The notes beneath the pieces are model-generated. The model saw only the letters and a list, made by a program, of their open reading frames with translations. It was not told the origin of the DNA and did no database searches. A stretch of DNA of 64,000 bases from positions 48,174,001-48,238,000 of the forward strand of contig NW_027362764.1 in the NCBI RefSeq assembly GCF_046119375.1, written 5' to 3'. This document shows positions 23,125 to 52,193 of this stretch, piece after piece. Made by a program: the position numbers and the translations under genes. The stretch comes from Phyllobates terribilis. Its lineage: Eukaryota. Positions within the stretch are counted from its first letter, which is position 1. The number at the start of each line of letters is the position of its first letter.

Positions 23125-23147
23125 CAGGGATGGAGAGGGTTTACTTT

Positions 23148-23193
23148 TGTCTAGGGCGACCTCTCTGAGCGATCCTAGACACAGGCGTTTCCC
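23148..23193 (-). promoter_or_regulatory. -1 programmed ribosomal frameshift signal between gag and pol
   Basis: Slippery G GGA AAC, a 5-nt spacer, then stem TGTCTAGG/CCTAGACA. The -1 frame runs without a stop into pol. Confidence 0.8.
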
Positions 23194-24125: not shown

Positions 24126-24126
24126 G

Positions 24127-24136
24127 GCCCGAGCAA
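24127..24136 (-). promoter_or_regulatory. Non-tRNA primer-binding site (self-priming type)
   Basis: TTGCTCGGGC lies 2 nt after the 5' LTR and is the exact complement of GCCCGAGCAA located 30 nt downstream of the LTR TATA box. Confidence 0.8.
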
Positions 24137-24138
24137 AC

Positions 24139-31876: not shown

Positions 31877-34800
31877 CTAAGAGGATCCTCCGGATCCCCT
31901 AGGCCCAGGCTTACCAGGAAACCTCCTGTGAAACGCTCTGACAAGTCTGGAAGCAGAAACATCATCCGCCCTCACCCATGAGTTATCCTCACGTCCGAAA
32001 CCCTTCCAAGCGACGAGATACTGCAAACTCCCTCTATACCGTCTAGAATTTAGGATGCGGGAAATTTCATATTCCCCGTCCTCCACCACCGGAGGAACAG
32101 TGGCAGAGGCGTCACCATCAGACACATCAGATTTTTTCAACAGAGAAACATGAAACACCGGGTTAATCTTCCAGGATGTAGGAACCTCCAACCTAACAGC
32201 AGATTGGTTAACTATCTGAAGCACCTTAAAGGGCCCTACGAACTTGGGACCCAATTTTTTAGAAGGAATCCTCAATCGCAGATTCTTAGAGGACAACCAA
32301 ACCATGTCACCAACAGCAAACAAAACCTCTTGCCGTTTCCTATCAAAGTACCTCTTAGATTTTTTGTTAGCCTCCTGAAGATTACCACGCACATCCGTCC
32401 AAACTCTCTCCAAATCACCGGAAAAACTCTCCTCCTCAGGCACAGCCGAAACCAATTTGGAGAATGACCCAAAAGACGGATTTCTCCCAGAACAACAAAA
32501 AAAAGGCGAACACCCAGCAGAAGAGGATGTATGGTTGTTAAGAGCAAATTCAGCAAGTGGCAGAAACTCAGACCACCCCTCTTGATTGTCTGCCACAAAA
32601 CAACGCAAGAACTGCTCAACATCCTGGTTCTTCCTTTCTGTCTGGCCATTAGACTCAGGATGATATCCAGATGAAAACGACAAATGAACTCCCAACCTGT
32701 CACAAAAGGCACGCCAAAAACGAGCCACGAACTGAGGTCCCCTATCAGAAACAATGTCAGTAGGAACACCATGTAGTCTGACAATTTCCTTGACAAAGGC
32801 CTTAGCGAGTGTCTTAGCGCAAGGCAGTTTGATGAAGGGAACCAAGTGACACATCTTGCTAAAACGGTCCACGACCACCCAGATGACCGTGAAACCTTCA
32901 GAGGGGGGAAGGTCAGTAATAAAGTCCATAGCCAGATGTGTCCAAGGTGCACTAGGAACCTCCAGAGGGCAAAGCAACCCCGCAGCAGGAGCATGCGAAT
33001 ACTTGGATCTAGCACACACAGTACATTGGCGCACCCACTTAATGACTTCCTTCTGCCATCCAGGCCACCAAAAACTGCGACCCACAAGTCTCTTGGTCTC
33101 AGAAATTCCTGGATGACCTGCCAACCGAGACTCATGACACTCAACAAACAAATCTCTCCTAAAGGTCCTAGGCACAAACAACCTCCCATGGGGAGTGTTA
33201 GATGGGGCATTCTCCTGAGCTTTAAGAATCTCATCCTCCAAAACGGAGTCCAAAGCAGCAATCACAACACCTTCTTGTAAAATGCTTTCCTCTTCCTCCT
33301 CAACACCGACCATGGGAGAAAAGCTGCGAGACAAAGCATCCGCTTTAACATTCTTGGTACCCGGGATGTAAGTAACGGAAAAATTAAACCGCGAGAAAAA
33401 AAGTACCCACCTAGCCTGACGGGCATTCAAGCACTTAGCAGCATCAAGATAAATCAGATTTTTATGATCAGTGAAAACCTGAATGGGAAATTCAGCACGT
33501 TCCAAGAGGTGACGCCAGTGTTCAAATGCGAGTTTAATAGCCAGCAATTCCCAATTACCAATATCGTAATTAAGTTCAGTCTCAGAAAATTTTTTTGAAA
33601 AAAAGGCACAGGGATGTACTCCATCCTTGTTTTCCTGAGACCACACCGCACCGACCCCCACCGAAGAAGCATCAACCTCAACCAAAAATGGCTTAGTCAC
33701 ATCAGGCTGCATAAGGATGGGAGCAGAGGAGAACCTCTCCTTTAGAAACACAAAAGCTTCAATGGCCTCAGAGGTCCACTGAACCGCATTAGCACCTTTC
33801 CTGGTGAGATCGGTCAGCGGTTTGACAATAATAGAAAAAAATTTTATGAATTTTCTGTAATAATTGGCGAAACCCAAAAACCTCTGTATCGATTTCAAAC
33901 CAATAGGCCTAGGCCATTCCTGCACAGCTTGAACTTTAACCGGGTCCATCTCAAAACCTTCACTGGAGATAATGTAGCCCAAAAAACTAATTCTCTGTAC
34001 AGCGAACTCACATTTCTCCAGCTTAGCAAAAAGCGAATTGTCCATTAATAACTGTAAAACCTCACGTACGCTCCGCCAATGAGACTCCAGATCAGGCGAA
34101 TAAATCAGAATGTCATCCAAATACACAACCACATTTTTGCCGATTAAAGGTCTAAGGATGTCATTAATAAGATTCTGAAAAAATGCTGGAGCATTGGTAA
34201 GACCAAAAGGCATAACCAGATTCTCAAAATGACCCACAGGAGTGTTAAAAGCAGTCTTCCATTCATCACCCTCCTTCATGCGCAACAAATTGTATGCCCC
34301 CCGGAGATCAATTTTAGAGAACCACTTGGCCCCCACTAACTGGTTAAATAAATCAGGAATCAATGGCAGTGGGTAAGGATTGCGTACAGTAATTTTATTA
34401 ATCTCACGAAAGTCCAGACAAGGACGTAAACCGCCATCTTTTTTTTTTACAAAAAAAAATCCAACAGCCACAGGAGACTTGGAAGGCCTAATGTGACCGG
34501 CGGCCAAGCTTGTCTGTATGTATTCCTCCAAAGCCTTTCTCTCAGGAATAGTAAGATTAAATAAACGACTTTTAGGAAGAGTCGCTCCAGGGACAAATTC
34601 AATGGTACAATCATAGTCTCTATGGGGAGGCAAAATTTGTGACTCCTCCTCAGAAAAAACTCTCCAAAAATCCTGAATAGGTACAGGCAATTCCCCTCTA
34701 TCCACAGCAGCAATGCGCCCGTTACAACACTTGTCATAACACTTAGGGCTCCAGGACTTAATTTCATTGGTAGACCAATCCAGTACAGGATTGTGCAATT

Positions 34801-34999
34801 TTAACCAGGGTAACCCCAATATTACTGGAGAAGGCAAATTATCCAATACCACCAAATCCAAATTTTCTTGGTGAATACCATTAATAGTGAGGGGAAATTC
34901 ACAGACCTTATGAGTAACACTCTTCAAGGGAGAGCCATCAACAGAAACCACAGCAATAGGGGATGACAAAGTTTTAGGTTCTAATCTAAGTTTTTCCAA
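31877..34999 (-). CDS. pol: Gypsy-2 pol: protease C-half, RT, RNase H, integrase, chromodomain (open for 1040 codons)
   Basis: Motifs YLDD, VDAS, TDHKNL, HLAMDF, SDRGPQF, GPF and the chromodomain YEISRIL..YLVAWKGFGREDNSW. Confidence 0.95.
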   Translation of the reverse strand: MEKLRLEPKTLSSPIAVVSVDGSPLKSVTHKVCEFPLTINGIHQENLDLVVLDNLPSPVILGLPWLKLHNPVLDWSTNEIKSWSPKCYDKCCNGRIAAVDRGELPVPIQDFWRVFSEEESQILPPHRDYDCTIEFVPGATLPKSRLFNLTIPERKALEEYIQTSLAAGHIRPSKSPVAVGFFFVKKKDGGLRPCLDFREINKITVRNPYPLPLIPDLFNQLVGAKWFSKIDLRGAYNLLRMKEGDEWKTAFNTPVGHFENLVMPFGLTNAPAFFQNLINDILRPLIGKNVVVYLDDILIYSPDLESHWRSVREVLQLLMDNSLFAKLEKCEFAVQRISFLGYIISSEGFEMDPVKVQAVQEWPRPIGLKSIQRFLGFANYYRKFIKFFSIIVKPLTDLTRKGANAVQWTSEAIEAFVFLKERFSSAPILMQPDVTKPFLVEVDASSVGVGAVWSQENKDGVHPCAFFSKKFSETELNYDIGNWELLAIKLAFEHWRHLLERAEFPIQVFTDHKNLIYLDAAKCLNARQARWVLFFSRFNFSVTYIPGTKNVKADALSRSFSPMVGVEEEEESILQEGVVIAALDSVLEDEILKAQENAPSNTPHGRLFVPRTFRRDLFVECHESRLAGHPGISETKRLVGRSFWWPGWQKEVIKWVRQCTVCARSKYSHAPAAGLLCPLEVPSAPWTHLAMDFITDLPPSEGFTVIWVVVDRFSKMCHLVPFIKLPCAKTLAKAFVKEIVRLHGVPTDIVSDRGPQFVARFWRAFCDRLGVHLSFSSGYHPESNGQTERKNQDVEQFLRCFVADNQEGWSEFLPLAEFALNNHTSSSAGCSPFFCCSGRNPSFGSFSKLVSAVPEEESFSGDLERVWTDVRGNLQEANKKSKRYFDRKRQEVLFAVGDMVWLSSKNLRLRIPSKKLGPKFVGPFKVLQIVNQSAVRLEVPTSWKINPVFHVSLLKKSDVSDGDASATVPPVVEDGEYEISRILNSRRYRGSLQYLVAWKGFGREDNSWVRADDVSASRLVRAFHRRFPGKPGPRGSGGSS

Positions 35000-35958
35000 G
35001 AATCCCCCATCAATCCCCCATCAATCACATTCAGAGTAGAACCACAATCCACAAATACCCGAAATTCAATTAATTCATCCTGAGCAGCAGTAGTGGCAGA
35101 TAGGAATACTCCCTTAGAATTTAAACAGGCAATACGGGCATAACTGACCATTTTTTTTTCTTTCTTCAAACGAAGCACACAGTTCTTAATAAAATGACCA
35201 GAATTTCCGCAATAGAAGCACAAGCCTTCAGAAAGCCTGCGGTCTTTTTCCTGAGAGCGGGGTGGCATCGCCCCAATCTCCATCGGCTCTCCATTGTCAG
35301 CACAGACCCTCTCAAGACTCGGAGCTGACATAGCAGAGGATTTGCTCTCATTAACCCTTGCACGCAGTCTCCTGTCCACCCGTATAGCTAATTGCATAGC
35401 CTCCTGCAAGTTTCCAGGTGTGGGATAAGCAATCAGTAAATCCTTAACCCTTTCACCTAGCCCTGCAAGAAACAAGCTTTTCAAAGCTGAATCGTTCCAC
35501 CCCACCTGGGCAGACCACCGACGGAAGTGAGAACAATATTTTTCCACATTACCTGATCCCTGCCTCAAACGTCTCAATTCAGACTCAGCAGATGAGACAC
35601 GATCAGGATCATCATACAACAAACCCAAAGCAGAAAAAAAACTATCCACTGATCTAAAGCACGGATCACTAGGTTGGAGAGAGAAGGCCCATCCCTGAGG
35701 ATCTTTGCGCAAAAGTGACATTATGAACCCTATGCGCTGTGATTCATCACCAGAGGATCCAGGTCTCAAATGAAAATACAATAAACAAGCATTTTTAAAA
35801 GAAAAAAAATCTTGTTGTTCGCCAAAAAATAAATCAGGCAGACATACCTTTGGTTCCACAAAATGTGGTCCAGAACAGCTACTCACGTGTTGTTGGAGCT
35901 TGGCCACCTCCAGAGAGAGTCCCTGCAAGCGTTGAGCCAAATCTTGAACCGAGACCAT
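34981..35958 (-). CDS. gag: Gypsy-2 gag plus protease N-half; frame broken by an 11-bp duplication
   Basis: GEPMEIG and CFYCGNSGHFIKNC are followed in frame by FVDCGS. AATCCCCCATC is duplicated at 35001-35022. Confidence 0.92.
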   Translation of the reverse strand: MVSVQDLAQRLQGLSLEVAKLQQHVSSCSGPHFVEPKVCLPDLFFGEQQDFFSFKNACLLYFHLRPGSSGDESQRIGFIMSLLRKDPQGWAFSLQPSDPCFRSVDSFFSALGLLYDDPDRVSSAESELRRLRQGSGNVEKYCSHFRRWSAQVGWNDSALKSLFLAGLGERVKDLLIAYPTPGNLQEAMQLAIRVDRRLRARVNESKSSAMSAPSLERVCADNGEPMEIGAMPPRSQEKDRRLSEGLCFYCGNSGHFIKNCVLRLKKEKKMVSYARIACLNSKGVFLSATTAAQDELIEFRVFVDCGSTLNVIDGGLMGDSWKNLD

Positions 35959-36645
35959 GATGGAAAACTGGAGGTCTTTCCTTAGAGAAATTTTTTTTTT
36001 TTCTTTTAGGGCTGGACTTACTGTTGTGATCTGCTACAGGGACTAAGGAAAGACAGGAGAACTGTCCCTACAATAGAACTAAACTAGATCCCTACGATGT
36101 AACGGGGAACCTGATCCTGCGATCAGACCCGCTAAAGTCCTCGGCTAGTCTGAACGAAGACCTATAGATGTGAAGGAGGGATCCCTACAAGAACTAGGGA
36201 CTGGGATAAGTTGGACACCTCCTAGCAGAAATAGTAGCAGTCAAAGACAAACACACAACAAAAAGCATAGAGGTCAGAAGACCTAGCAAAACTAACAGAG
36301 AACGGCAACAGAGCACCACGCTAGCTCAAGAGTAGTAAATACAATGAAGTCCAGGAGGGCGGAGCCATATTAAATAGGCAAAAATGGCCATGTGACCAGC
36401 AAACTAAAAAAACCCTAACAGGAGAGTTCTAACAGTCAGCTAGTTCAGCGACCCAACTCTGACCCGTTGCATTCAGTTTGGCTGTAGTAAGGACATAGAT
36501 CAAAGGGTTGTTGTAAGTGTATACCTCAAACTTTTTGCTCTAGTAGAGATAATCTCTAAATCGTTCACAGATGACCTATTTCAATGCCAAAAACTCCAAT
36601 TTTCCGGAATGTAGATGGTAATTCTTCTCGGCGTCTGTCAACGTT

Positions 36646-38829
36646 CTAGAATGATTTCCCATTCAGTGAGTACTGGTGACTTCCATTTTTCCTTCCCATA
36701 TGTATGACCTTACATTTCTCCTCGTTAAACCTCATTTGCCATTTAATGCTCCACCTACCCAGCTTATCCAAATCCCTCTGTAGGTCTGCACTGTCCTCTT
36801 TTATATTAATTGTTTTACATAACTTTGTGTCATCTGCAAATATTGATATTTTACTATTTATCCCGTTGACTATGTCGTTAATAAAGATATTAAATAACAT
36901 TGGGCCTAGTACAGACCCCTGTGGTACCCCACTAGTGACGCTTACCCAATCTGAGAATATTCCATTTATAACCACCCTCTGCCTTCTATCCTTTAGCCAG
37001 TTAGCTACCCACTTGCAGACATTTTCCCCCAGCCCCATCATTCTCATTTTGTATACCAATCTATTATGTGGCACGCTATCGAACGCTTTTGAGAAGTCGA
37101 CATACACGACATCCACTGGTTCCCCCTGATCTACTCGAGAGCTAACCTCCTCGTAGAAGTCAATCAGGTTTGTTTGGCAGGAGCGATTCCTCATGAATCC
37201 ATGTTGGTTCGGGGTTAATAGATTATTAGCATCAAGATGCTCCATGATTGCCTCATTAATAAAGCCTTCAAAAATTTTGCCCACAACGGACGTCAGACTC
37301 ACCGGCCGATAGTTTCCGGTGTTACTTTTTGCTCCCTTTTTGAATATTGGCACTACATTCGCCTGTCGCCAATCAAGTGGTACAGACCCAGTCTCAACAG
37401 AGTCCTTAAATATAAGATATAACGGTCTGTCTATCACATTACTTAGTTCCCTTAGTACCCGTGGGTGTATGCCATCAGGTCCTGGTGATTTGTTTATTTT
37501 AATGTTACTGAGGCGTTTCTGTACCCCAGCTTGGGTTAGATTTGTCATACTTAGTGGAGGATTAAGCTTGTCACTTCTCATTTCGCCTGTTAGTTCTTTT
37601 TCCTTTGTGAAAGTTGACGAAAAAAATTTATTTAATAGATTAGCTTTATCCTCATCTTTCTCTATGATTTCGCCTTCATCACTTTTTATCGGTCCAATAT
37701 TATCCGATTTAATCCTTTTACTATTTATATACGTAAAGAACAGTTTGGGATTTGATCTACTTTCCCTAGCAATACGTCTCTCTGTTTCCTCCTTTGCTAT
37801 TTTTATTTGTTTTTTGCAGGTTCTCGTTTTTTCCTTGTAACACATTAGTGCCTCCTTGCTGTTTTCCTGTTTTAATCTCTTGAATGCCTCTTTTTTGCTA
37901 TTTAACGCCCCTTTTACGTTCTTATTCAACCATATTGGTTTCCTCTTATTTCTGGCCCTTTTATTCCCATACGGTATATACCTCTCGCACTGAGTATTCA
38001 GAATTCTTTTGAAGGTTTCCCATTTACTATTCGTATTTCCTTGATTAAGAACTTTGTCCCAGTCTATAAGTTGAAGGTTTTCTTTCAGCTGATCAAACTT
38101 CGCCCTCCTAAAGTTTAATGTTTTAGTTGTTCCCTTATTGATAACCCTACTGAAGGGCATTTTGAAATTGATAATATTATGATCGCTATTACCTAGGTGC
38201 CCCCCTATCTGTACCTCAGTTATTCTATCAGGCCTATTAGTCAATATTAAGTCCAACACTGCCTTCCCTCTCGTTGGTTCCTGCACTAGTTGGGAGAGAT
38301 AATTATCCTTGATATTTGTCAAGAACCTTTTTCCTTTCTGCGATCTACAGGTTTCTGTTTCCCAGTCAATATCCGGGTAGTTGAAGTCCCCCATTACAAT
38401 CACCTCATTATGTTTTGCTACTTTGTCTATTTGTCCTAATAGCAGTTTCTCATTCTCCTCTGTTATATTGGGTGGCTTATAGCAGACCCCCAGTAATATT
38501 TTATTATTATTTTTTGCCCCCTCTATCTCTACCCACATGGACTTGACCCCCTCTTCTCCCTCTCCTATATCTTCCCTTAGTCTGGGCTTTAGACGTGACT
38601 TTACATATAAGCAGACTCCTCCGCCCTTCCCCTGTTTCCGGTCCCTTCTAAATAAACTATAATCTGTTAAATTTACCGCCCAGTCGTAGCTATCGTCTAG
38701 CCAAGTCTCTGTTATACCTATGATGTCATACCTCTCCTCCGATATAAGCGCCCGCAGCTCATCCGCCTTATTGGTCAGGCTTCTTGCGTTGGTCAGCATG
38801 CAAGATAAAACTTTGGGGTTATTTAGCAT
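36646..38829 (-). CDS. CR1-1 ORF2 (APE endonuclease plus RT), 3'-truncated
   Basis: First ATG at 38829 (MLNNPK). Motifs GITETWL, MGDFN, SDH, PQGSVLGP and FADD. The frame ends at YSLNGKSF* where it runs into Gypsy sequence. Confidence 0.93.
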   Translation of the reverse strand: MLNNPKVLSCMLTNARSLTNKADELRALISEERYDIIGITETWLDDSYDWAVNLTDYSLFRRDRKQGKGGGVCLYVKSRLKPRLREDIGEGEEGVKSMWVEIEGAKNNNKILLGVCYKPPNITEENEKLLLGQIDKVAKHNEVIVMGDFNYPDIDWETETCRSQKGKRFLTNIKDNYLSQLVQEPTRGKAVLDLILTNRPDRITEVQIGGHLGNSDHNIINFKMPFSRVINKGTTKTLNFRRAKFDQLKENLQLIDWDKVLNQGNTNSKWETFKRILNTQCERYIPYGNKRARNKRKPIWLNKNVKGALNSKKEAFKRLKQENSKEALMCYKEKTRTCKKQIKIAKEETERRIARESRSNPKLFFTYINSKRIKSDNIGPIKSDEGEIIEKDEDKANLLNKFFSSTFTKEKELTGEMRSDKLNPPLSMTNLTQAGVQKRLSNIKINKSPGPDGIHPRVLRELSNVIDRPLYLIFKDSVETGSVPLDWRQANVVPIFKKGAKSNTGNYRPVSLTSVVGKIFEGFINEAIMEHLDANNLLTPNQHGFMRNRSCQTNLIDFYEEVSSRVDQGEPVDVVYVDFSKAFDSVPHNRLVYKMRMMGLGENVCKWVANWLKDRRQRVVINGIFSDWVSVTSGVPQGSVLGPMLFNIFINDIVNGINSKISIFADDTKLCKTINIKEDSADLQRDLDKLGRWSIKWQMRFNEEKCKVIHMGRKNGSHQYSLNGKSF

Positions 38830-38956
38830 CCTATTCTTCTCTAACGATCTAACTGTACTATCCCCACCCCCCTCTCCACCCTCATTATATTCACTTCTCC
38901 CCTTCCCCCTTGCTTGCCTCACATCCCACCTATTTCCTTGGTTCCCCCCCCCGTCT

Positions 38957-39883
38957 CTAGTTTAAAAACTCCTCCAACCTATTAGCCATCTTCTTCCCCA
39001 GCACCGCTGCACCCTCCCCATTGAGGTGCAGCCCGTCCCTACGGTAGAGCCTGTAGCCGACAGCGAAGTCGACCCAGTTCTCCATGAACCCAAACCCTTC
39101 TGCCTTGCACCAACTCTTTAGCCACTTATTCACCTCCCTAACCTCCCGTTGGCGCTCCTGTGTGGCTCGCGGGATTGGTAGTATTTCTGAGAAAACTACC
39201 TTGGAGGTCCTTGCCCTAAGCTTCCTACCTAGATCCCTGAAATCATTTTTAAGGACCCTCCATCTACCACTCACTTTGTCATTGGTGCCAATGTGGACCA
39301 TGACCGCTGGGTCTTCGCCAGCCCCACCCAGTAACCTGTCAACCCGATCCGCGATGTGCCGGACTCGAGCGCCAGGGAGGCAGCACACCGTTCGGCGATC
39401 CCGGTCTTTGTGACAGATTGCCCTGTCTGTCCCCCTAATAATAGAGTCACCCACTACCAGGACCTGTCTAGCCTGCCCTACACTTCCCCCCTCCCCCTCA
39501 TTACTGGAGCATACACTCCCCCGGCGGTCAGAGGATCTGTCGTGCTCCAATAATGCCGGTTCTGAACCAGCCTTCCTATACTTCTTCCCTCTATCCCTTC
39601 TAACTGTTACCCAGCTCCCTGCCTGTTCAGCCTGCGCTTCCCCACTAAGCTCCACCCCCAGTGTTGACCCATTGAGTGTCTGCTCGGTGAGCAGCAAACT
39701 CCGTTCCATGTTGTCGATGCTCCTCAGTACCGCTATCTGAGCACTTAGATCCAGGATTTGGGCTTCCAAGTGCACGATATGCTCACATCTCTCGCAGCAG
39801 TATGGATCCCTGAGCGGTAGCTCAGGGAATGCATACATTGCGCAAGATGTACACTGCACGGCTCCGGCCAACATGGACGTCAT
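38957..39883 (-). CDS. CR1-1 ORF1 (zinc-finger/leucine-zipper plus SGNH/GDSL esterase), 308 aa
   Basis: ATG at 39883 (MTSMLAGAVQCTSC...CERC). Motifs VVGDSII, HIGTND and DGLHLN. Confidence 0.92.
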   Translation of the reverse strand: MTSMLAGAVQCTSCAMYAFPELPLRDPYCCERCEHIVHLEAQILDLSAQIAVLRSIDNMERSLLLTEQTLNGSTLGVELSGEAQAEQAGSWVTVRRDRGKKYRKAGSEPALLEHDRSSDRRGSVCSSNEGEGGSVGQARQVLVVGDSIIRGTDRAICHKDRDRRTVCCLPGARVRHIADRVDRLLGGAGEDPAVMVHIGTNDKVSGRWRVLKNDFRDLGRKLRARTSKVVFSEILPIPRATQERQREVREVNKWLKSWCKAEGFGFMENWVDFAVGYRLYRRDGLHLNGEGAAVLGKKMANRLEEFLN

Positions 39884-39884
39884 T

Positions 39885-40777
39885 CTAAATATGGGGATAC
39901 AGTCAGTATATATGTACAAGTACAAAACACATTTATATATAGGTGTATGGACGGGGATCAATTAGGGATGTGCAAGTGTATCGATTAGATATCGGCGCGG
40001 GATCAGTTAAGTATGGACGGGGGATCAATTAAGTATCAATTAAGTATGGACGGGGGATCAGCTGAGTGGGTCAGGTGGATTAATTAAGTATGGACGGTGT
40101 GTCAATTAACTATGGACTGGGATCAATAAGTATGAACTGAGGAAATAATTAATTGTGGACTAGGGAATCAATCAATTAATTATGGACAGGGGGTTTAATT
40201 AAATAGGATGGGGGGTAAAGCAAATAAATAGGTATGGACGGTGGGTCAATTAACTAAGGACTGGGGATCAATAAGTATCAATAATATCAATAAATAAGGA
40301 CTGGGAAAATAATTAATTGTAGTCTGGGGAATCAATCAATTAATTATGGACAGGGGTTAATTAAATATGGTGGGGGATAAGGCAAATAGATAGGGACTGG
40401 GGATGAGTAAAAGTGGACAAGGGGAATCTATTAAATAGGACAAGGGGGATCAATCAATTATGGGCTGGGGGGGTCAATCATTTAAATGTGGTCAGGGGGA
40501 TCACTTTAATCACTTTAATATGGACGGGGGGTGGTCGGGGATCAATTAAATGAGGACGGGGGGGTCAATTTAATGTGGTCAGAGGGATCAGTTAAATATG
40601 GACGGGGGTGTTCAGGGGAATCAATTTAAATATGGACGGGGGGGTAATCAATTAAATATGGACTAGGGAATACAATACAATACAATACAATTACAATACA
40701 GATACAAATACAATACAGTACAGTACACACTTCGGTTCAGTAGGGCCGCTTATCGCGGCCTCCTGCCCCTCACTCAC
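39885..40777 (-). other. Candidate spliceosomal intron (893 nt) in the CR1-1 5' UTR
   Basis: Donor GAG|GTGAGT at 40777. Branch-like TACTGAC, then TGTATCCCCATATTTAG|A ATG. Confidence 0.6.
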
Positions 40778-43579
40778 CTCCTCTAGGGACGCTGCACGCT
40801 ATCACAGCGCGCTTGTCCCTCCGGTCGCCTCTTACCGGTCCTCCTGATCACCTCCTGGTCACCACCACCTGGCACCCTCCGCTGGCCGGCACTGCACGCT
40901 GCCACAGCGCTCTCTTGCGCTCGTCCCTCCGGTCGCCTCCTACTGGTCCTCCCGGTCCGCTCGGTCACCTCCGCCTATTCTTGTACATAGGAGCAGTATT
41001 ATAGTAGTTATATTCTTGTACATAGGGAGCAGTATTATAGTAGTTATATTCTTGTACATAGGAGCAGTATTATAGTAGTTATATTCTTGTACATAGGGGG
41101 CAGTATTATAGTAGTTATATTCTTGTACATAGAGGCAGTATTATAGTAGTTATATTCCTGTACATAGGGGGCAGTATTATAGTAGTTATATTCTTGTACA
41201 TAGGGGGCAGTATTATAGTAGTTATATTCTTGTACATAGGAGCAGTATTATAGTAGTTATATTCCTGTACATAGGGGGCAGTATTATAGTAGTTATATTC
41301 TTGTACATAGGAGCAGTATTATAGTAGTTATATTCTTGTACATAGGGAGCAGTATTATAGTAGTTATATTCTTGTACATAGGAGCAGTATTATAGTAGTT
41401 ATATTCTTGAAGATAGGAGCAGTATTATAGTAGTTATATTCTTGAAGATAGGAGCAGTATTATAGTAGTTATATTCTTGTACATAGGGGGCAGTATTATA
41501 GTAGTTATATTCTTGTACATAGAGGCAGTATTATAGTAGTTATATTCCTGTACATAGGGGGCAGTATTATAGTAGTTATATTCTTGTACATAGGGGGCAG
41601 TATTATAGTAGTTATATTCTTGTACATAGGAGCAGTATTATAGTAGTTATATTCTTGTACATAGGAGCAGTATTATAGTAGTTATATTCTTGTACATAGG
41701 GGGCAGTATTATAGTAGTTATATTCTTGTACATAGGAGCAGTATTATAATAGTTATATTCTTGTATATAGGAGCAGTATTATAGTAGTTATATTCTTGTA
41801 CATAGAGGGCAGTATTATAGTAGTTATATTCTTGTACATAGGGGGCAGTATTATAATAGTTATATTCTTGTACATAGGAGCAGTATTATAATAGTTATAT
41901 TCTTGTATATAGGAGCAGTATTATAGTAGTTATATTCTTGTACATAGAGGGCAGTATTATAGTAGTTATATTCTTGTACATAGGGGCAGTATTATAGTAG
42001 TTATATTCTTGTACATAGGGGGCAGTATTATAGTAGTTATATTCTTGTACATAGGGGGCAGTATTATAGTAGTTATATTCTTGTACATAGGGGGCAGTAT
42101 TATAGTAGTTATATTCTTGTACATAGGGGGCAGTATTATAGTAGTTATATTCTTGTACATAGGGTGCAGTATTATAGTAGTTATATTCTTGTACATAGGA
42201 GCAGTATTATAGTAGTTATATTCTTGTACGTAGGGGCAGTATTATAGTAGTTATATTCTTGTACATAGGGGGCAGTATTATAGAAGCTATATGCCTGTAC
42301 ATAGAGGGCAGTATTATAGTAGTTATATTCTTCTACATGGGGGGCAGTATTATAGTAGTTATATTCTTGTACATAGGGGCAGTATTATAGTAGTTATATT
42401 CTTGTACATAGGGGCAGTATTATAGTAGTTATATTATTGTACATAGGAGGCAGTATTATAGAAGTTATATTCCTGTACATAGAGGGCAGTATTATAGTAG
42501 TTATATTCTTGTACATAGGGGGCAGTATTATAGAAGTTATATTCCTGTACATAGGGGGCAGTATTATAGTAGTTATATTCTTGTACGTAGGAGCAGTATT
42601 ATAGTAGTTATATTCTTGTACATAGGGGCAGTATTATAGTAGTTATATTCTTGTACAAAGGGGGCAGTATTATAGTAGTTATATTCTTGTACGTAGGGGC
42701 AGTATTATAGTAGTTATGTTCTTGTACGTAGGGGACAGTACTATAGTAGTTATATTCTTGTATATAGGAGCAGTATTATAGTAGTTATATTCTTGTACAT
42801 AGGAGCAGTATTATAGTAGTTATATTCTTGTACATAGGGGCAGTGTTATAGTAGTTATATTCTTGTACATAGGGGCAGTATTATAGTAGTTATACTCTTG
42901 TACATAGGGGGCAGTATTATATTAGTTATATTCTTGTACATAGGGGCAGTATTATAGTAGTTATATTCTTGTACATAGGAGCAGTACTATAATAGTTATA
43001 TTCTTGTAAATAGGAGCAGTACTATAATAGTTATATTCTTGTACATACGGGGCAGTATTACAGTAGGTATATTCTTGTACATAGGAGCAGTATTATAGTA
43101 GTTATACTCTTGTACATAGGAGCAGTATTATAATAGTTATATTCTTGTATATAGGAGCAGTATTATAGTAGTTATATTCTTGTACATAGGGGCAGTATTA
43201 TAGTAGTTATATTCTTGTACATAGGGGGCAGTATTATAGTAGTTATATTCTTGTACATAGGGGGCAGTATTATAGTAGTTATATTCTTGTACATAGGGGG
43301 CAGTATTATAGTAGTTATATTCTTGTACATAGGGGGCAGTATTATAATAGTTATATTCTTGTACATAGGAGCAGTATTATAGTAGTTATATTCTTGTACA
43401 TAGGAGCAGTATTATAGTAGTTATATTCTTGTACATAGGGGCAGTGTTATAGTAGTTATATTCTTGTACATAGGGGCAGTGTTATAGTAGTTATATTCTT
43501 GTACATAGGGGCAGTGTTATAGTAGTTATATTCTTATACATAGGGTGCAGTATTATAGTAGTTATATTCTTGTACATAG

Positions 43580-44444
43580 TGTAAGGCAGCGCTCGTCATC
43601 ATACTGGGGGTAACTCGCTTCGCTGCGTCAATCAATGCACACGTGCAATGTCTTTACGTTTTTCACACAGTGTTGCAGTTTATTATGGCACTTCATAAAC
43701 CGCTGTTCACACACAGTTCATCTTAGTCCGCCACCGGCAGGTTTACACACATAAACAATTCATGAGCCAAGTGGCACACCGGCCCACTTGCTCCAGGGTA
43801 CAGCTTACGGCAAGGTAATAAAGTAGCAATGTTCATATCACAATGTCCATATAGCACCGGGTATTACCTTTGCCGGGTATAGCTGTCTCAGTCCGTTACT
43901 CTGCCACCACTGTGGCTCTGCGGCTTCCCAGGTAGGGGTCTCCAGCCGTCGTTCCGTCTAAGGCTACTGGTATGTCTCCACTCACATCCAGCCTGCGCCT
44001 TTCAGGACTCTTCCACAAGCCGGCTTTCCCTCAAAGGCCACTGACATCCATGCATCGGATCCAGGCTTGGCCTTTCAGGCTGCCAGGCTTCACTCTCGGC
44101 CTCACTAGGCCTCTCACAAACGGTATCACGGTATCCCACACACATGGGGAACAGGCCTCACGCCTCACACCGAACACACCTGTCTCAAATTAAGCAGGTT
44201 TATATATGCTGTGCACAGACAGCCACATACTGACAGGACCTTGCTGATGTCACAGTCATGTGATCAGTCAGCTGTGTGTATAGGTCCTGTGTGCTGTCCC
44301 AGTCATGTATACAGAGCTTTACTGTGCATGCAGGACCTGGGTGATGTCACAGTCATGTGACCAGTCAGATAAAGGGGAAGGTACATGGTCCGGTAAGCAC
44401 ATCCTGGACCATTTACAGTAATGCTAGCAACCTGCTGCATTACA
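43580..44444 (-). mobile_element. Solo LTR (865 bp) inserted in the satellite
   Basis: TGTAA...TTACA termini with 4-bp TSD ATAG. On the minus strand, TATATAAA is at 44206 and AATAAA at 43684. Confidence 0.88.
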
Positions 44445-47400
44445 ATAGGAGCAGTATTATAGTAGCTATATTCGTGTACATAGGAGCAGTATTATAGTAG
44501 TTATATTCTTGTACATAGGAGCAGTATTATAGTAGTTATATTCTTGTACATAGGAGCAGTATTGTAGTAATTATATTCTTGTACATAGGGGCAGTATTAT
44601 AGTAGTTATATTCTTATACATAGGAGCAGTATTATAGTAGTTATATTCTTGTACATAGGAGCAGTATTATAGTGGTTATATTCTTGTACATAGGAGCAGT
44701 ATTATAGTAGTTATATTCTTATACATAGGAGCAGTATTATAGTAGTTATATTCCTGTACATAGGGGGCAGTATTATAGTAGTTATATTCTTGTACATAGG
44801 GGCAGTATTATAGTAGTTATATTCTTGTACATAGGAGCAGTATTATACTGTAGTAGTTATATTCTTGTACATAGGAGCAGTATTATAGTAGTTATATTCT
44901 TGTACATAGGGGCAGTGTTATAGTAGTTATATTCTTGTACATAGGGGCAGTGTTATAGTAGTTATATTCTTGTACATAGGAGTAGTATTATAGTAGTTAT
45001 ATTCTTATACATAGGGGGCAGTATTATAGTAGTTACATTCTTGTACATAGCAGTATTATAGTAGTTATATTCTTGTACATAGGAGCAGTATTATAGTAGT
45101 TATATTCTTGTACATAGGGGGCAGTATTATAGTAGTTATATTCTTGTACATAGGAGCAGTATTATAGTAGTTATATTCTTGTACATAGGGGCAGTGTTAT
45201 AGTAGTTATATTCTTGTACATAGGGGGCAGTATTATAGTAGTTATATTCTTGTACATAGGGGCAGTATTATAGTAGTTATATTCTTGTACATAGGGGGCA
45301 GTATTATAGAAGTTATATTCCTGTACATATGGGGCAGTATTATAGTAGTTATATTCTTGTACGTAGGAGCAGTATTATAGTAGTTATATTCTTGTACATA
45401 GGGGCAGTATTATAGTAGTTATATTCTTGTACAAAGGGGGCAGTATTATAGTAGTTATATTCTTGTACGTAGGGGCAGTATTATAGTAGTTATGTTCTTG
45501 TACGTAGGGGACAGTACTATAGTAGTTATATTCTTGTATATAGGAGCAGTATTATAGTAGTTATATTCTTGTACATAGGAGCAGTATTATAGTAGTTATA
45601 TTCTTGTACATAGGGGCAGTGTTATAGTAGTTATATTCTTGTACATAGGGGCAGTATTATAGTAGTTATACTCTTGTACATAGGGGGCAGTATTATATTA
45701 GTTATATTCTTGTACATAGGGGCAGTATTATAGTAGTTATATTCTTGTACATAGGAGCAGTACTATAATAGTTATATTCTTGTACATAGGAGCAGTACTA
45801 TAATAGTTATATTCTTGTACATACGGGGCAGTATTACAGTAGGTATATTCTTGTACATAGGAGCAGTATTATAGTAGTTATACTCTTGTACATAGGAGCA
45901 GTATTATAGTAGTTCTATTTGTGTACATAAGGGCAATATTATAGTAGTTATATTCTTGTACGTAGGAGCAGTATTATAGTAGTTATATTCTTGTACATAG
46001 GAGCAGTATTATAATAGTTATATTCTTGTATATAGGAGCAGTATTATAGTAGTTATATTCTTGTACATAGGGGCAGTATTATAGTAGTTATATTCTTGTA
46101 CATAGGGGGCAGTATTATAGTAGTTATATTCTTGTACATAGGGGGCAGTATTATAGTAGTTATATTCTTGTACATAGGGTGCAGTATTATAGTAGTTATA
46201 TTCTTGTACATAGGGGGCAGTATTATAATAGTTATATTCTTGTACATAGGAGCAGTATTATAGTAGTTATATTCTTGTACATAGGAGCAGTATTATAGTA
46301 GTTATATTCTTGTACATAGGGGCAGTGTTATAGTAGTTATATTCTTGTACTTAGGAGCAGTATTATAGTAGTTATATTCTTGTACATAGGGGCAGTGTTA
46401 TAGTAGTTATATTCTTATACATAGGGGGCAGTATTATAGTAGTTATATTCTTGTACATAGGAGCAGTATTATAGTAGCTATATTCATGTACATAGGAGCA
46501 GTATTATAGTAGTTATATTCTTGTACATAGGAGCAGTATTATAGTAGTTATATTCTTGTACATAGGAGCAGTATTATAGTAGTTATATTCTTGTACATAG
46601 GAGCAGTATTATAGTAGTTATATTCCTGTACATAGGGGGCAGTATTATAGTAGTTATATTCTTGTACATAGGGGCAGTATTATAGTAGTTATATTCTTGT
46701 ACATAGGAGCAGTATTATACTGTAGTAGTTATATTCTTGTACATAGGAGCAGTATTATAGTAGTTATATTCTTGTACATAGGGGCAGTGTTATAGTAGTT
46801 ATATTCTTGTACATAGGGGCAGTGTTATAGTAGTTATATTCTTGTACATAGGAGTAGTATTATAGTAGTTATATTCTTATACATAGGGGGCAGTATTATA
46901 GTAGTTACATTCTTGTACATAGCAGTGTTATAGTAGTTATATTCTTGTACATAGGAGCAGTATTATAGTAGTTATATTCTTGTACATAGGGGCAGTGTTA
47001 TAGTAGTTCTATTCTTGTACATAGGGGGCAGTATTATAGTAGTTATATTCTTGTACATAGGAGCAGTATTGTAGTAGTTATATTCTTGTACATAGGGGCA
47101 GTGTTATAGTAGTTATATTCTTGTACATAGGGGCAGTATTATAGCAGTTATATTCTTGTACATAGGGGCAGTATTATAGTAGTTATATTCTTGTACATAG
47201 GGGCAGTGTTATAGTAGTTATATTCTTGTACATCGGAGCAGTATTATAGTAGTTATATTCTTATACATAGGGGCAGTATTATAGTAGTTATATTCTTGTA
47301 AATAGGAGCAGTATTATAGTAGTTATATTCTTGTACTTAGAAGCAGTATTATAGTAGTTATATTCTTATACATAGGGGGCAGTATTATAGTAGTTATATT

Positions 47401-48588
47401 CTTGTACATGGCAGTATTTTAGTAGTTATATTCTTGTACATAGGAGCAGTATTATAGTAGTTATATTCTTGTACATAGGAGCAGTATTATACTAGTTATA
47501 TTCTTGTACATAGGGGCAGTATTATAGTAGTTATATTCTTGTACATAGGAGTAGTATTATAGTAGTTATATTCTTGTACATAGGGGCAGTGTTATAGTAG
47601 TTATATTCTTGTACATAGGGGCAGTGTTATAGTGGTTATATTCTTGTACATAGGGGGCAGTATTATAGTAGTTATATTCTTGTTCATAGGGGGCAGTATT
47701 ATAATAGTTATATTCTTGTACATAGGGGCAGAGTGATGGTAGTTATTTTCTTGTACATAGGGGGCAGTATTATAGTAGCTATATTCTTGTACATAGGGGA
47801 CGGTATTATAGTAGTTATATTCTTGTACATAGGAGCAGTATTATAGTAGTTATATTCGTGTACATAGGGGCAGTGTTATAGTAGTTATATTCTTGTACAT
47901 AGTGGCAGTGTTATAGTAGTTATATTCTTGTACATAGGGGCAGTATTATAGTAGTTATATTCTTGTACATAGGGGTCATTGTTATAGTAGTTATATTCTT
48001 GTACATAGGGGCAGTGTTATAGTAGTTATATTCTTGTACATAGGGGGCAGTATTATAGTAGTTATATTCTTGTACATAGGGGGCAGTATTATAGTAGTTA
48101 TATTCTTGTACATAGGGGCAGTGTTATAGTAGTTATATTCTTGAACATAGGGGGCAGTATTATAGTAGTTATATTCTTGTACATAGGGGGCAGTAGTATA
48201 GTAGTTATATTCTTGTATATAGGGGCAGTGTTATAGTAGTTATATTCTTGTACATCGGAGCAGTATTATAGTAGTTATATTCTTATACATAGGGGGCAGT
48301 ATTATAGTAGTTATATTCTTGTACATAGGAGCAGTATTATAGTAGTTATATTCTTGTACATAGGAGCAGTATTATAGTAGTTATATTCTTGTACATAGGG
48401 GCAGTATTATAGTAGTTATATTCTTGTACATAGGGGCACTATTGTAGTAGTTATATTCTTGTACATAGGGGCAGTGTTATATTAGTTATATTCTTGTACA
48501 TAGGGGCAGTATTATAGTAGTTATATTCTTGTACATAGGGGGCAGTATTATAGTAGTTATATTCTTGTATATAGGAGCAGTATTATAG

Positions 48589-50517
48589 TAGAATCATAGA
48601 ATCATAGAATGGTTGAGTTGGAAGGGACCTCCTGGGTCATCTGGTCCAACTCCCTGCTCAAAGCAGGATTCACTAGATCATCTCAGACAGATGTCTGTCC
48701 AGCCTCTGTTTGAAGACGTCCATTGAAGGGGAACTCACCACCTCTCGTGGCAGCCTGTTCCACTCATTAATCACCCTAACTGTCAAAAAGTTTTTTCTAA
48801 TATCTAATCTGTGTCTCCTCCCATTTAGTTTCATCCCATTGCTTCTAGTCTTTCCTTGTGCAAATGAGAATAAAGATGATCCTTCTACAATGTGACAGCC
48901 CTTGACATATTTGTAGACAGCTATTAAGTCTCCTCTCAGTCTTTTTTTTTGCAAGCTAAACATTCCCAAATCCTGCAACCGTTCCTCATAGGACATGGTT
49001 TGCAGACCAGTCACCATTCTGGTCGCTCTTCTCTGAACTTGCTCCAGTTTGTCTATGTCTTTTTTAAAATGTGGTGCCCAAAACTGTACACAGTATTCCA
49101 GATGAGGTCTGACCAAAAAGGAGTAAAGACCGATAATGACTTCACGTGAACTAGACTGTATGCTTCTGTTAATACATCCCAGAATTGTATTTGCCTTTTT
49201 TGCTGCTGCATCACACTGTTGACTCATGTTCAGTCTATGATCTATTAGTATACCTAAGTCTTTTTCAAATGTGCTGTTGCTTAGCTCTATTCCTCCCATT
49301 CTGTATATGCTTTTTTCATTTTTATTGCCCAGATGTAGTACTTTGCATTTTTCCCTGTTAAAAACCATTCTGTTGGTTGCTGCCCACTGCTTCAGTTTAT
49401 TTAGGTCTTTTTGAATCCTCTCTCTCTCTTCTCTAGTATTAGCTATCCCTCCTAGCTTTGTGTCATCAGCAAATTTAATCAGTTTACCCTCAATTCCTTC
49501 ATCTAAATCATTGATAAAGATGTTGAACAATACAGGTCCCAGGACGGAGCCCTGTGGTACCCCACTTGAGACATTCATCCAGCTGGATGTGAAGCCATTT
49601 ACAACCACCCTTTGAGTCCGATCACTAAGCCAGTTATGAATCCACCTAACAGTTGCCTGGTCCATTGCATACTTGGTCATTTTTTCAATAAGGATGGTGT
49701 GAGATACTTTGTCAAATGCTTTGCTGAAGTCAAGATATACTATATCTACAGCATTTCCCTGATCCACCCAGTCAGTGATTCTGTCATAGAAGGAAATTAA
49801 GTTAGTCTGACATGACTTGTTAGTTACAAACCCATGCTGACTCTGGTTAATCACTTCATTCTTATCCATGTACTTACATACATGTTGTTTAATAATTTGT
49901 TCAAAGATCTTTCCTGGTATAGAAGTCAGACTCACCGGCCTATAGTTCCCTGGGTCCATCTTCTTCCCCTTTTTGAAGATAGGAACAACATTTGCTCTTC
50001 TCCAGTCTTCTGGGACTTCTCCTGTTCTCCAAGAATTTTCAAAGATTATGGAGAGTGGTTCTAAAATTTCTTCTACGATCTCCTTCAGTACTCTGGGGTG
50101 TAATTCATCTGGACCTGGAGACTTGAACTCATTTATGTTAGCTAAATATTCCCTCACAATCTTTCTGTTTACAGATAACTTTGATTCCTCTATTCCTTTA
50201 AAAGGACAGTGAAGATCAGTTGATGTTACATTTTCTTTCTGAGAGAAAACAGATGCAAAATAGGAATTAAAAAGTTCGGCCTTCTCAACATCCTCTCTTA
50301 CCATTTCTCCATTTTCATCCTGTAAAAATCCTATAGCATCTTTGACTTTTCTTTTACTTTTGACATACCCCCAAAATCCTTTTTTATTGCTTTTGACATC
50401 TCTTGCAAGCCTTAATTCATTGTCAGCTTTAGCTAACCTGATACGTGCCCTGCAGGATCTGCAGACTGCATTATAATCTTCTTTAGATATGCCTCCCTCT
50501 TTCCATTTAATAAACAT
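48589..50517 (-). mobile_element. CR1-2: 5'-truncated CR1 LINE with an intact 3' end
   Basis: 3' UTR ...GGTCCCTTCCAACTCAACC followed by an (ATTCTATG)n tail; inserted at TAGTAG of a satellite unit. Confidence 0.96.
48673..50517 (-). CDS. CR1-2 ORF2, RT and C-terminal part (614 aa, no endonuclease)
   Basis: Uninterrupted frame with YRPVSLT, QHGF, PQGSVLGP, FADD and RPHLEY. Confidence 0.93.
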   Translation of the reverse strand: MFIKWKEGGISKEDYNAVCRSCRARIRLAKADNELRLARDVKSNKKGFWGYVKSKRKVKDAIGFLQDENGEMVREDVEKAELFNSYFASVFSQKENVTSTDLHCPFKGIEESKLSVNRKIVREYLANINEFKSPGPDELHPRVLKEIVEEILEPLSIIFENSWRTGEVPEDWRRANVVPIFKKGKKMDPGNYRPVSLTSIPGKIFEQIIKQHVCKYMDKNEVINQSQHGFVTNKSCQTNLISFYDRITDWVDQGNAVDIVYLDFSKAFDKVSHTILIEKMTKYAMDQATVRWIHNWLSDRTQRVVVNGFTSSWMNVSSGVPQGSVLGPVLFNIFINDLDEGIEGKLIKFADDTKLGGIANTREERERIQKDLNKLKQWAATNRMVFNREKCKVLHLGNKNEKSIYRMGGIELSNSTFEKDLGILIDHRLNMSQQCDAAAKKANTILGCINRSIQSSSREVIIGLYSFLVRPHLEYCVQFWAPHFKKDIDKLEQVQRRATRMVTGLQTMSYEERLQDLGMFSLQKKRLRGDLIAVYKYVKGCHIVEGSSLFSFAQGKTRSNGMKLNGRRHRLDIRKNFLTVRVINEWNRLPREVVSSPSMDVFKQRLDRHLSEMI

Positions 50518-52193
50518 TAGTAGTTATTAGTAGTTATATTCTTGTACATAGGGGGCAATATTATAGTAGTTATATTCTTGTACATAGGGGCAGTATTATA
50601 GTAGTTATATTCTTGTACATAGGGGGCAGTATTATAGTAGTTATATTCTTGTACATACGGGGCAGTGTTATAGTAGTTATATTCTTGTACATAGGGAGCA
50701 GTATTATAGTAGTTATATTCTTGTATATAGGGGGCAGTATTATAGTAGTTATATTCTTGTACATAGGGGGCAGTATTATAGTAGTTATATTCTTGTACAT
50801 AGGGGGCAGTATTATAGTAGTTATATTCTTGTACATAGGGGCAGTGTTATAGTAGTTATATTCTTGTGCATAGGGGCAGTGTTATAGTAGATATATTCTT
50901 GTACATAGGGGCAGTATTATAGTAGTTATATTCTTGTACATAGGAGCAGTATTATAGTAGTTATATTCTTGTACATAGGGGGCAGTATTATAGTAGTTAT
51001 ACTCTTGTACATAGGAGCAGTATTATAGTAGTTATATTCTTGTACATAGGGGCAGTATTATAGTAGTTATATTCTTGTACATAGGAGCAGTATTATAGTA
51101 GTTATATTCTTGTACATAGGGGCAGTATTATAGTAGTTATATTCTTGTATATAGGAGCAGTATTATAGTAGTTATATTCTTGTACATAGGAGCAGTATTA
51201 TAGTAGTTATATTCTTGTACATAGGGGGCAGTATTATAGTAGTTATATTCTTGTACATAGGAGCAGTATTATAGCAGTTATATTCTTGTATATAGGAGCA
51301 GTATTATAGTAGTTATATTCTGGTACATAGGGAGCAGTATTATAGTAGTTATATTCTTGTACATACGAGCAGTATTATAGTAGTTATATTCTTGTACATA
51401 GGAGCAGTATTATAGTAGTTATATTCTTGTACATAGGGGGCAGTATTATAGTAGTTATATTCTTGTACAAAGGAGCAGTATTATAGTAGTTATATTCTTG
51501 TACGTAGGAGCAGTATTATATTAGTTATATTCTTGTACATAGGAGCAGTATTATAGTAGTTATATTCTTGTACATAGGAGCAGTATTATAGTAGTTATAT
51601 TCTTGTACATAGGGGCAGTATTATAGTAGTTATATTCTTGTACATAGGGGCAGTATTATAGTAGTTATATTCTTGTACATAGGAGCAGTATTATAGTAGT
51701 TATATTCTTGTACATAGGAGCAGTATTATAGTAGTTATATTCTTGTACATAGGGGCAGTATTATAGTAGTTATATTCTTGTACATAGGGGGCAGTATTAT
51801 AGTAGTTATATTCTTGTACATAGGAGCAGTATTATAGTAGTTATATTCTTGTACATAGGAGCAGTATTATAGTATTTATATTCTTGTACATAGGGGCAGT
51901 GTTATAGTAGTTATATTCCTGTACATAGGGGGCTGTCAGATGGTCAGAGGTCACCATTCTGTGAACAACTGCATTTAAAATTGTGGAACAATTTCAGAAA
52001 AATGTTCCTCGACATAAAACTGCAAAGTTAAGAAGAGGGGATGCGACACAGTGATGGACACGGACCAAGCACGACTAGTTTGTGAAGTCTCGCTGCCATT
52101 AATTTCTAAATTAGTTTTTTTTGCTATAGGAAATAGAATAATGTCTGACATTCGCGTTCTGATCTGTGTTCTATGCTCTGTGGGAATAATATA

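What the first reader, a model, noticed from the sequence alone, without database searches (positions are those of the whole stretch)
39881..40975. A CR1 LINE with an apparent intron in its 5' UTR that ends 1 nt before the ORF1 start codon
Seen on the minus strand: a ~200-nt CpG-rich, ATG-free first segment ends in a consensus donor (CTAGAGGAG|GTGAGT, 40777). It is followed by 893 nt of (TTGTA)n and degenerate ATCCCCCGTCCATA(T)TTAATT repeats containing upstream ATGs, then branch-like TACTGAC (A 18 nt from the acceptor), a pyrimidine-leaning tract and TTTAG|A ATG of ORF1. Established: retrotransposition through spliced RNA normally purges introns; Penelope elements are the known exception, and L1 5' UTR splicing yields defective copies. 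Inference: this family may keep two RNA pools, spliced for ORF1/ORF2 translation and unspliced as the template that preserves the promoter region. I know of no description of this for CR1, but I cannot search the literature.
Basis: partly seen in the sequence, partly recalled or inferred. Interest (0 to 1): 0.8.

Follow-up and report, generated by a model that had tools for sequence, protein, structure and literature searches.

The report
Jumping gene keeps its intron-like leader
A young jumping-gene family in an amphibian genome carries intron-like signals in front of its first gene, but no genomic copy was found that has lost this stretch and it is almost free of start codons, so it is likely kept in the RNA that is both translated and copied, with splicing only a rare side event.

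Summary
No copy joins donor to the acceptor before ORF1 (0, against about 2% for human L1). A second family ("B") with an unrelated 5' UTR has the same layout, and its donor is demonstrably used: 9 copies break exactly at it (6 as clean GT-AG losses between promoter repeats, 3 joined to family-A 5' ends), none at a control site. One copy breaks at the A donor. A third family keeps the pyrimidine tract but mostly lacks GT and AG. No usable RNA data were available. Verdict: real but seldom-used donors in a leader that is likely retained (about 0.7), working like L1's 5' UTR splice sites; the two-RNA-pool model stays open (about 0.2). New variant of a known kind.

The parts
40778..40975 (-). G-rich, CpG-rich, ATG-free first segment of the 5' UTR (internal promoter region, inferred); this copy lacks about 110 nt of the family's 5' end
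40830..40838 (-). weaker donor-like site CCG|GTAAGA inside the first segment; use not tested separately
40772..40780 (-). donor GAG|GTGAGT; last of six GGAGGTGA-like repeats in the first segment; one genomic copy (L303) breaks exactly here
39885..40777 (-). 893-nt intron-like leader: G falls from 46% to about 10%, ATG-depleted, no AG in the last ~180 nt before the acceptor, length 652-902 nt in 27 of 30 copies
40669..40727 (-). (TTGTA)n tract
40479..40481 (-). the one upstream ATG shared by subfamily A1 (7-codon uORF, T at -3)
39930..39932 (-). second upstream ATG, made by a 4-nt deletion not present in 30 of 30 other copies
39902..39908 (-). branch-point-like TACTGAC
39885..39901 (-). short pyrimidine-leaning tract with ATCCCCAT motif (shared with families B and C) and acceptor-like TTTAG; used in no genomic copy
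38957..39883 (-). ORF1, 308 aa, CxxC..CxxC, coiled-coil-like stretch, GDSL/SGNH esterase; lacks ~20 aa of the linker found in relatives
38960..38966 (-). T TTA AAC heptamer in ORF1 frame just before the stop (candidate -1 frameshift site; inferred)
36650..38961 (-). ORF2 (AP endonuclease + reverse transcriptase), cut off at 36650; the last ~850 nt of the element are missing from the window

Best explanation
The stretch is the 5' UTR of a young CR1 LINE family: an intron-like, ATG-poor leader that all examined genomic copies retain and that is likely kept in the one RNA that is both translated and reverse-transcribed, while its donor is likely a real but seldom completed splice site. Steps: (1) transcription likely starts in the G/CpG-rich first segment near GGAAGTG motifs (inferred); (2) U1 snRNP likely binds the donor 120-320 nt downstream (shown for family B by copies that break exactly at the donor; one such copy for A); (3) splicing to the acceptor before ORF1 is absent from copied RNA (shown: 0 copies); (4) ribosomes likely scan through the retained leader, which is why it is purged of ATG (depletion shown, cause inferred); (5) the donor is likely kept because U1 or intron-binding proteins near the promoter favour full-length transcripts of an A-rich RNA with 13-14 poly(A)-signal hexamers, or blunt HUSH-type silencing (inferred, untested); (6) occasional use of the donor yields spliced promoter arrays and first-exon/element chimeras, as in L1 (shown).
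For: No spliced copy: exact junction 0; any non-TT sequence before the ORF1 start 1 place in A and 4 in B, all truncations or insertions, against 1,067 unspliced donors and 2,558 unspliced acceptors for A and 3,943 and 1,779 for B; 95% upper bound 0.28% against 131 of 6,609 for L1 (PMC5860796). ATG 0-2 against 19-22 expected in four A introns and most depleted of 64 triplets in A and, independently, in the B monomer. Donor use: 9 junctions exactly at the B donor among 50 of 66 places read, 0 among 19 of 19 at a control site; 1 at the A donor among 5 element places, 0 foreign junctions among 34 of 47 control places read. In the six GT-AG-spliced copies the ORF1-proximal acceptor is still in place. 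Same layout in an unrelated UTR. Sense-strand AATAAA/ATTAAA 13-14 in the ORFs of 3 of 3 copies. Unspliced introns protect against HUSH in human cells (PMC8770142, passages).
Against: No RNA evidence either way. Family C keeps the tract and has ATAAGT near the equivalent place but GTRAGT in only 1 of 30 and AG in 8 of 30 (six of them one duplicated block), so a working donor is not needed by every family. The A donor is one of six similar repeats, so chance is higher than the 3% shuffle figure. ATG depletion is measured on repeats, which lowers the effective sample; tiles of a nearby satellite are nearly as ATG-poor on one strand. Evidence for use of the A donor itself is one copy. A good branch point and AG-free zone are not explained by retention. 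The HUSH paper found that splice sites on stuffer DNA did not protect, so signals alone would not suffice.
Confidence: 0.45

Rival explanations
1. Retained leader, signals as by-products: the donor-like words are promoter (DNA-level) motifs or repeat variants that happen to fit U1; they are used now and then but not selected for any splicing role, as proposed for the L1 donor inside a RUNX3 site.
For: A donor is the last of six GGAGGTGA-like repeats; B carries AAGTG in its donors and in its 5' GGAAGTG; family C has ATAAGT without GT and mostly no AG; 2 of 3 non-amphibian CR1 contigs have no GTRAGT before ORF1; L1 precedent (PMC5860796 discussion).
Against: Two unrelated UTRs each place a strong donor just after a purine-rich first segment and a branch/AG-free/YAG set within 3 nt of the ATG; rough shuffle odds 0.03 and 0.02 for A, 0.016 and 0.022 for B. 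The AB chimera kept donor and acceptor while amplifying (20 of 40 sampled), though any collinear crossover would.
Confidence: 0.27
2. Two RNA pools: the intron is spliced from an mRNA that makes ORF1p/ORF2p, and only unspliced RNA is chosen as template, e.g. by nuclear retention or a packaging signal in the intron.
For: Complete donor/branch/acceptor set with a ~180-nt AG-free zone; same layout in B; donors are used; absence of spliced genomic copies is what strict template choice would give; ORF1p of the related ZfL2-1 is dispensable in HeLa cells (PMC3905857 passages), so protein and template could be uncoupled.
Against: ATG purge of the intron has no reason if it is removed before translation; RNAs spliced between B monomers were copied (6 places), so spliced RNA is not barred as such; intron interiors are exchangeable and share no sequence between A and B beyond the last motif, which argues against a packaging signal; family C lacks the sites; needs over 99.7% selectivity; L1 intra-5'UTR spliced RNAs retrotranspose in cis.
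Confidence: 0.2
3. Exon trap: the acceptor before the ATG serves to splice host or upstream-element exons onto ORF1, so that promoter-less copies are expressed.
For: Acceptor 1-3 nt before the ATG in A and B; more copies hold the acceptor than the donor; exon/LINE chimeras are known for L1 (bioRxiv 10.1101/2025.02.02.635956); L166 has an acceptor-like unique flank.
Against: No host-exon or first-exon junction at this acceptor in the genome (5 places, all truncations or insertions); first-exon chimeras join at element 5' ends instead; does not explain the donors.
Confidence: 0.08

Closest known systems
Human L1 5' UTR splice sites and SpIREs (Larson et al. 2018, PMC5860796; abstract, sections 7 and 17 part 1 read)
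   Same: Internal-promoter 5' UTR with a conserved donor near the 5' end; most RNA unspliced; rare spliced RNAs end up as genomic copies.
   Different: L1 has about 2% spliced copies, here 0 of 1,067 for the intron in question and 6 of 3,943 donor places for a different, monomer-to-monomer splice in B. Here the acceptor-like site sits 1-3 nt before the ORF1 ATG so that splicing would leave ORF1 whole, and B's spliced copies keep a promoter monomer.
First-exon/L1 chimeras ending at splice donors (Law and Burns, bioRxiv 10.1101/2025.02.02.635956; abstract and passages read)
   Same: An exon ending exactly at a donor is joined to the 5' end of a near-full-length LINE, with or without a few extra bases and often with no acceptor in the LINE (L303, L340, L346, L351).
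   Different: There the exons are from host genes; here they are the first segments of CR1 subfamilies themselves, joined to other CR1 subfamilies.
Zebrafish ZfL2-1/ZfL2-2 splice sites (Tamura, Kajikawa, Okada 2007; not held; title seen in a reference list; content recalled)
   Same: CR1-group LINEs with functional splice sites.
   Different: As recalled, scattered sites inside the elements, not a promoter-proximal donor paired with an acceptor at the ORF1 start; not checked.
Canonical CR1 with esterase ORF1 (Stuart et al. 2026, PMC13343379; abstract, passages, sections 15 and 43 read)
   Same: Esterase ORF1, APE + RT ORF2, short-repeat 3' tail, 5' repeated subunits in some elements.
Penelope/Athena elements with retained introns; copia/EVADE spliced gag RNA (recalled, no call)
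   Same: Retroelements whose copies keep an intron, or that use spliced and unspliced RNAs for different jobs.
   Different: There removal of the intron from an mRNA is shown; here it is not, and the intron is ATG-purged.

Membership tests
Canonical CR1 LINE | ORF2 with AP endonuclease and reverse transcriptase | tested here: met
   PF03372/PF14529 and PF00078; ~980-aa frame in full copies
Canonical CR1 LINE | ORF1 with SGNH/GDSL esterase, related to bird, shark and coelacanth CR1 ORF1 | tested here: met
   PF13472; 56 homologues incl. frogs, coelacanth, sharks, ducks
Canonical CR1 LINE | 3' tail of short tandem repeats, no poly(A); variable 5' truncation | tested here: met
   8-nt repeat tail in most of 20 full copies; staggered 5' ends
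Canonical CR1 LINE | Placement in the CR1 clade on an RT tree | not tested
   no tree built
Spliceosomal (U2) intron 40777-39885 | GT donor, branch point, pyrimidine tract, AG | tested here: met
Spliceosomal (U2) intron 40777-39885 | Removed from RNA (junction reads) | tested here: inconclusive
   four runs laid were contigs that behave like genomic DNA; no run on record as RNA
Spliceosomal (U2) intron 40777-39885 | Spliced form recorded in retrotransposed copies | tested here: not met
   0 copies
Spliceosomal (U2) intron 40777-39885 | Terminal dinucleotides kept across diverged relatives | tested here: inconclusive
   kept in A1, A2, A3, AB and B; mostly absent in C
SpIRE-like copies (family B/AB leader) | Genomic copies with a precise GT-AG loss and no microhomology | tested here: met
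   6 places, at least two different right-hand sequences
Penelope-type intron retention with spliced mRNA | Spliced mRNA needed for protein while genomic copies keep the intron | not testable with these tools
   needs RNA; ATG purge argues against

The most novel reading that the evidence does not exclude
Amphibian CR1 LINEs carry a true 5' UTR intron and split their RNA in two: a spliced mRNA that makes the proteins and an unspliced RNA that alone (over 99.7%) is reverse-transcribed, a LINE that breaks cis preference and may use the intron to dodge silencing of intronless retroelements; the cut first exons also serve as portable promoters that are joined onto other CR1 subfamilies.
Probability: 0.2. 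Interest if true: 0.85.

Novelty: new variant of a known kind. Interest (0 to 1): 0.45.

Why it matters
LINEs are taken to be intronless because they are copied from their own mRNA, and HUSH is thought to recognise them by that. A family with over a thousand near-identical copies, two unrelated leaders with the same intron-like layout and genomic fossils of donor use gives a direct test of whether a LINE can profit from an intron it does not remove (or from one it removes only in the protein-coding pool). The first-exon chimeras between subfamilies also show one route by which LINEs swap promoters, a long-noted but poorly explained feature of their evolution.

Tried and rejected
RNA: no RNA holder listed. 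Four runs laid on full-length copy L025 were contigs only, gave no joint, rose in depth 5' to 3' like genomic truncation and one held L025's unique flank, so they were treated as DNA and not used as evidence. Two motifs from loose contig ends led nowhere (0; one truncated copy). Three further protein searches for distant CR1 families in the genome returned family B almost only, one locus led to family C. L166's acceptor-like flank is unique, not a family. L410 looked like a spliced junction but is a chance match outside the element, as is L409. L199 joins B's first segment to A's branch region by 2-nt microhomology, about 40 nt before the donor: a deletion, not splicing. No source locus for L340's 34-nt linker, so cis splicing, trans splicing and template jumping cannot be told apart for the four chimeras. 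A 24-nt intron within one B monomer was rejected as too short (own knowledge); monomer-to-monomer splicing is inferred. Conservation among copies was not used as proof of selection, since inserted copies decay neutrally. Three look-ups in earlier findings returned nothing. Literature searches found no description of a CR1 5' UTR intron; subscription journals are mostly not held.
Full report
Observation. On the minus strand the window holds a CR1 LINE from 40975 to 36650, 98.3% identical to a full-length copy, inserted in a 35-bp satellite and missing its last ~850 nt. ORF1 (39883-38957, 308 aa) is a GDSL esterase type, ORF2 has AP endonuclease and RT domains. The closest named ORF1 is from a tree frog (72%); the genome is 10.6 Gb. 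The last ~180 nt before the acceptor hold no other AG. By my own consensus rules such a donor appears in 3% and such an acceptor in 2% of 2,000 shuffles; the donor is, however, the last of six similar repeats.

The segment is family sequence. The first segment has 1,256 candidate places, 40 of 40 scored being identical. In 30 fetched copies the donor is present in all, the exact acceptor string in 27 (intron 652-902 nt), the other three having a nearby change. 18 of 30 extend further upstream, up to about 110 nt, to two GGAAGTG motifs, so the window copy is 5'-truncated. Subfamilies A2 and A3 have other 5' ends but the same donor and acceptor. Twenty copies taken by position, not by identity, are 95-99% identical to one of them and most end in an 8-nt repeat tail.

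No copy has lost the intron. The unspliced donor 23-mer occurs 1,067 times and the unspliced acceptor 24-mer 2,558 times; the exact junction occurs 0 times. A pattern for any other sequence directly before the ORF1 start gave one place, a truncation. From the donor side, 5 element places lack GT: four point changes and one junction, L303 (two further hits are chance matches). The 95% upper bound for spliced copies is 0.28%, against 131 of 6,609 full-length L1s (PMC5860796 section 7); copies are not fully independent and the patterns need exact matches.

The intron looks like a scanned leader. It has 2 ATG in the window, 1 in L025, 0 in L195 and L198, against 19-22 expected from dinucleotide shuffles, while CAT is at expectation. 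ATG is the most depleted of 64 triplets in these and, independently, in family B's 430-nt monomer. Of 28 A copies that could be scored, 24 have one ATG and 4 have two. The window's second ATG comes from a 4-nt deletion absent in 30 of 30 other copies. Caveat: the region is repetitive, and 5 of 142 window tiles, all in the satellite, have ATG ratios of 0.08-0.10 (median 0.94).

A second family with the same layout. A search with a distant frog ORF1 found family B (67-70% identical to P0001). Its 5' UTR shares no alignable sequence with A's but has a ~125-nt first segment starting at GGAAGTG, two GTAAGT 16 nt apart, a ~140-nt U-rich stretch with CTTAAC, and CCCCATTAG 3 nt before the ATG, often behind 430-nt monomers that each hold the donors. 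The donor 23-mer occurs 3,943 times and the acceptor 28-mer 1,779 times; none is spliced to ORF1 (4 places, truncations or insertions). Of 40 A-acceptor places chosen by eye from the first 100 listed as lacking an A donor, 20 are chimeras: B's first segment and donor joined inside the intron to A's last ~210 nt.

The donors are used. Of 66 places where B's donor lacks GT I read 50; the 16 unread all show GC. Nine break exactly at the donor. Six continue at the base after TTGTTTTTCAG, a precise GT-AG loss without microhomology, with two different right-hand sequences and about three structures; I infer splicing from one monomer to the next. All six still carry the ORF1-proximal acceptor. Three continue into the 5' end of a family-A copy, directly or through 11-34 other bases, as does L303 from the A donor. 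At a control site 13 nt into B's intron 0 of 19 places are junctions; at a control site in A's first segment 0 of 34 read (of 47) join foreign sequence. With 9 events P = 0.002, with 5 independent ones 0.03. Other, microhomology-type rearrangements of the leader exist (L199, L175, L307), and I had one control site per family. Exons ending at donors and joined to LINE 5' ends are described for L1 (bioRxiv 10.1101/2025.02.02.635956, passages).

A counter-example. Family C (866 candidates, about 8% diverged) keeps the pyrimidine tract and the ATCCCCAT motif before its ATG, but only 8 of 30 loci have an AG there (six are one duplicated block), 1 of 30 has GTRAGT in the last 200 nt, and 13 of 30 have ATAAGT at about B's donor distance. 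So what all three families share is the tract and motif, not the splice dinucleotides.

RNA. No run on record as RNA holds the stretch; the four laid behave like genomic DNA. Splicing in RNA is therefore untested.

Mechanism. Most likely the leader stays in the RNA that is translated and copied (about 0.7 in all). Within that, I favour a donor kept for U1 or intron-protein binding near the promoter (0.45; U1's protection against early polyadenylation is recalled knowledge; the ORFs carry 13-14 sense poly(A) hexamers in 3 of 3 copies; unspliced introns blunt HUSH in human cells, PMC8770142 passages) over pure by-product of promoter motifs (0.27; as argued for L1's donor).

Comparison and novelty. 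It is a canonical esterase CR1 by domains and tail; no tree was built. It works like L1's 5' UTR with its rarely used donor, SpIREs and exon chimeras. Ten literature searches found no account of a CR1 5' UTR intron; the 2026 vertebrate-wide CR1 paper has none in its main text (its supplement was listed, not read), nor do the passages shown from a chicken CR1 promoter paper (PMC2734521). Tamura et al. 2007 on zebrafish LINE splice sites was not held. I rate it a new variant of a known kind, interest 0.45.

Noticed in passing
window 38957-38966 (-) and alignment A1: 29 of 30 aligned CR1 ORF1s from frogs, coelacanth, sharks and birds end in Leu-Asn; in the frog families the DNA is T TTA AAC TAG, a classic -1 slippery heptamer (recalled), followed by a G-run of variable length. 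The -1 frame is open for 981 codons in 5 of 20 full A copies, the +1 frame for 924-979 in 3. Suggests ORF2 is made as a frameshifted ORF1-ORF2 fusion.
   Followed up: partly
L172-L206 (20 loci): High-copy chimeric subfamily AB: family B promoter on family A ORF1, crossover at a shared TACTTAA inside both leaders.
   Followed up: yes
5' ends of A1 (L025), A2/A3 (L195, L351) and B (L038): Three unrelated 5' ends all begin at or near GGAAGTG, an ETS/GABP-like motif (label recalled).
   Followed up: no
G000:C1:864459375-864709057 (L311-L333): 23 places within 250 kb carry a family-B promoter monomer with a mutated donor, apparently amplified as a tandem array.
   Followed up: no
G000 C23, C95, C357 (L368-L386): The A3 5' segment recurs at ~4.4-kb spacing in tandem arrays, mostly without donor or ORF1 within 1.5 kb.
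   Followed up: no
G000 C326, C231, C211, C800, C13:108.6-109.2 Mb: A family-B ORF1 repeats about every 80 kb, i.e. inside a large tandem unit.
   Followed up: no
window 39560-39580 (-), ORF1 linker: Family A ORF1 lacks about 20 aa including the N-K/R-F motif kept in nearly all other CR1 ORF1s, yet the family amplified recently.
   Followed up: no
window 31877-36033, 19790-24173, 30015-31034 (-): Two chromodomain-bearing Ty3/gypsy elements with long open gag/pol frames and a further integrase fragment; observed only.
   Followed up: no
window 10343-11269, 16138-17118, 26094-26930, 52357-53427; 48673-50523: Four Tc1-type transposase frames, and an RT fragment of another LINE inside the satellite.
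   Followed up: no
window 40976-51931: 35-bp satellite of about 255 units into which the CR1 and another LINE are inserted.
   Followed up: no
L124:1-170: A bird-type CR1 contig has GTGAGT 82 nt and CAG 7 nt before its ORF1 ATG; L122 and L123 have no such donor.
   Followed up: partly
L269, L274-L279: A family-C copy sits antisense-adjacent to what looks like a C2H2 zinc-finger array in a block duplicated at least six times (identification by eye).
   Followed up: no
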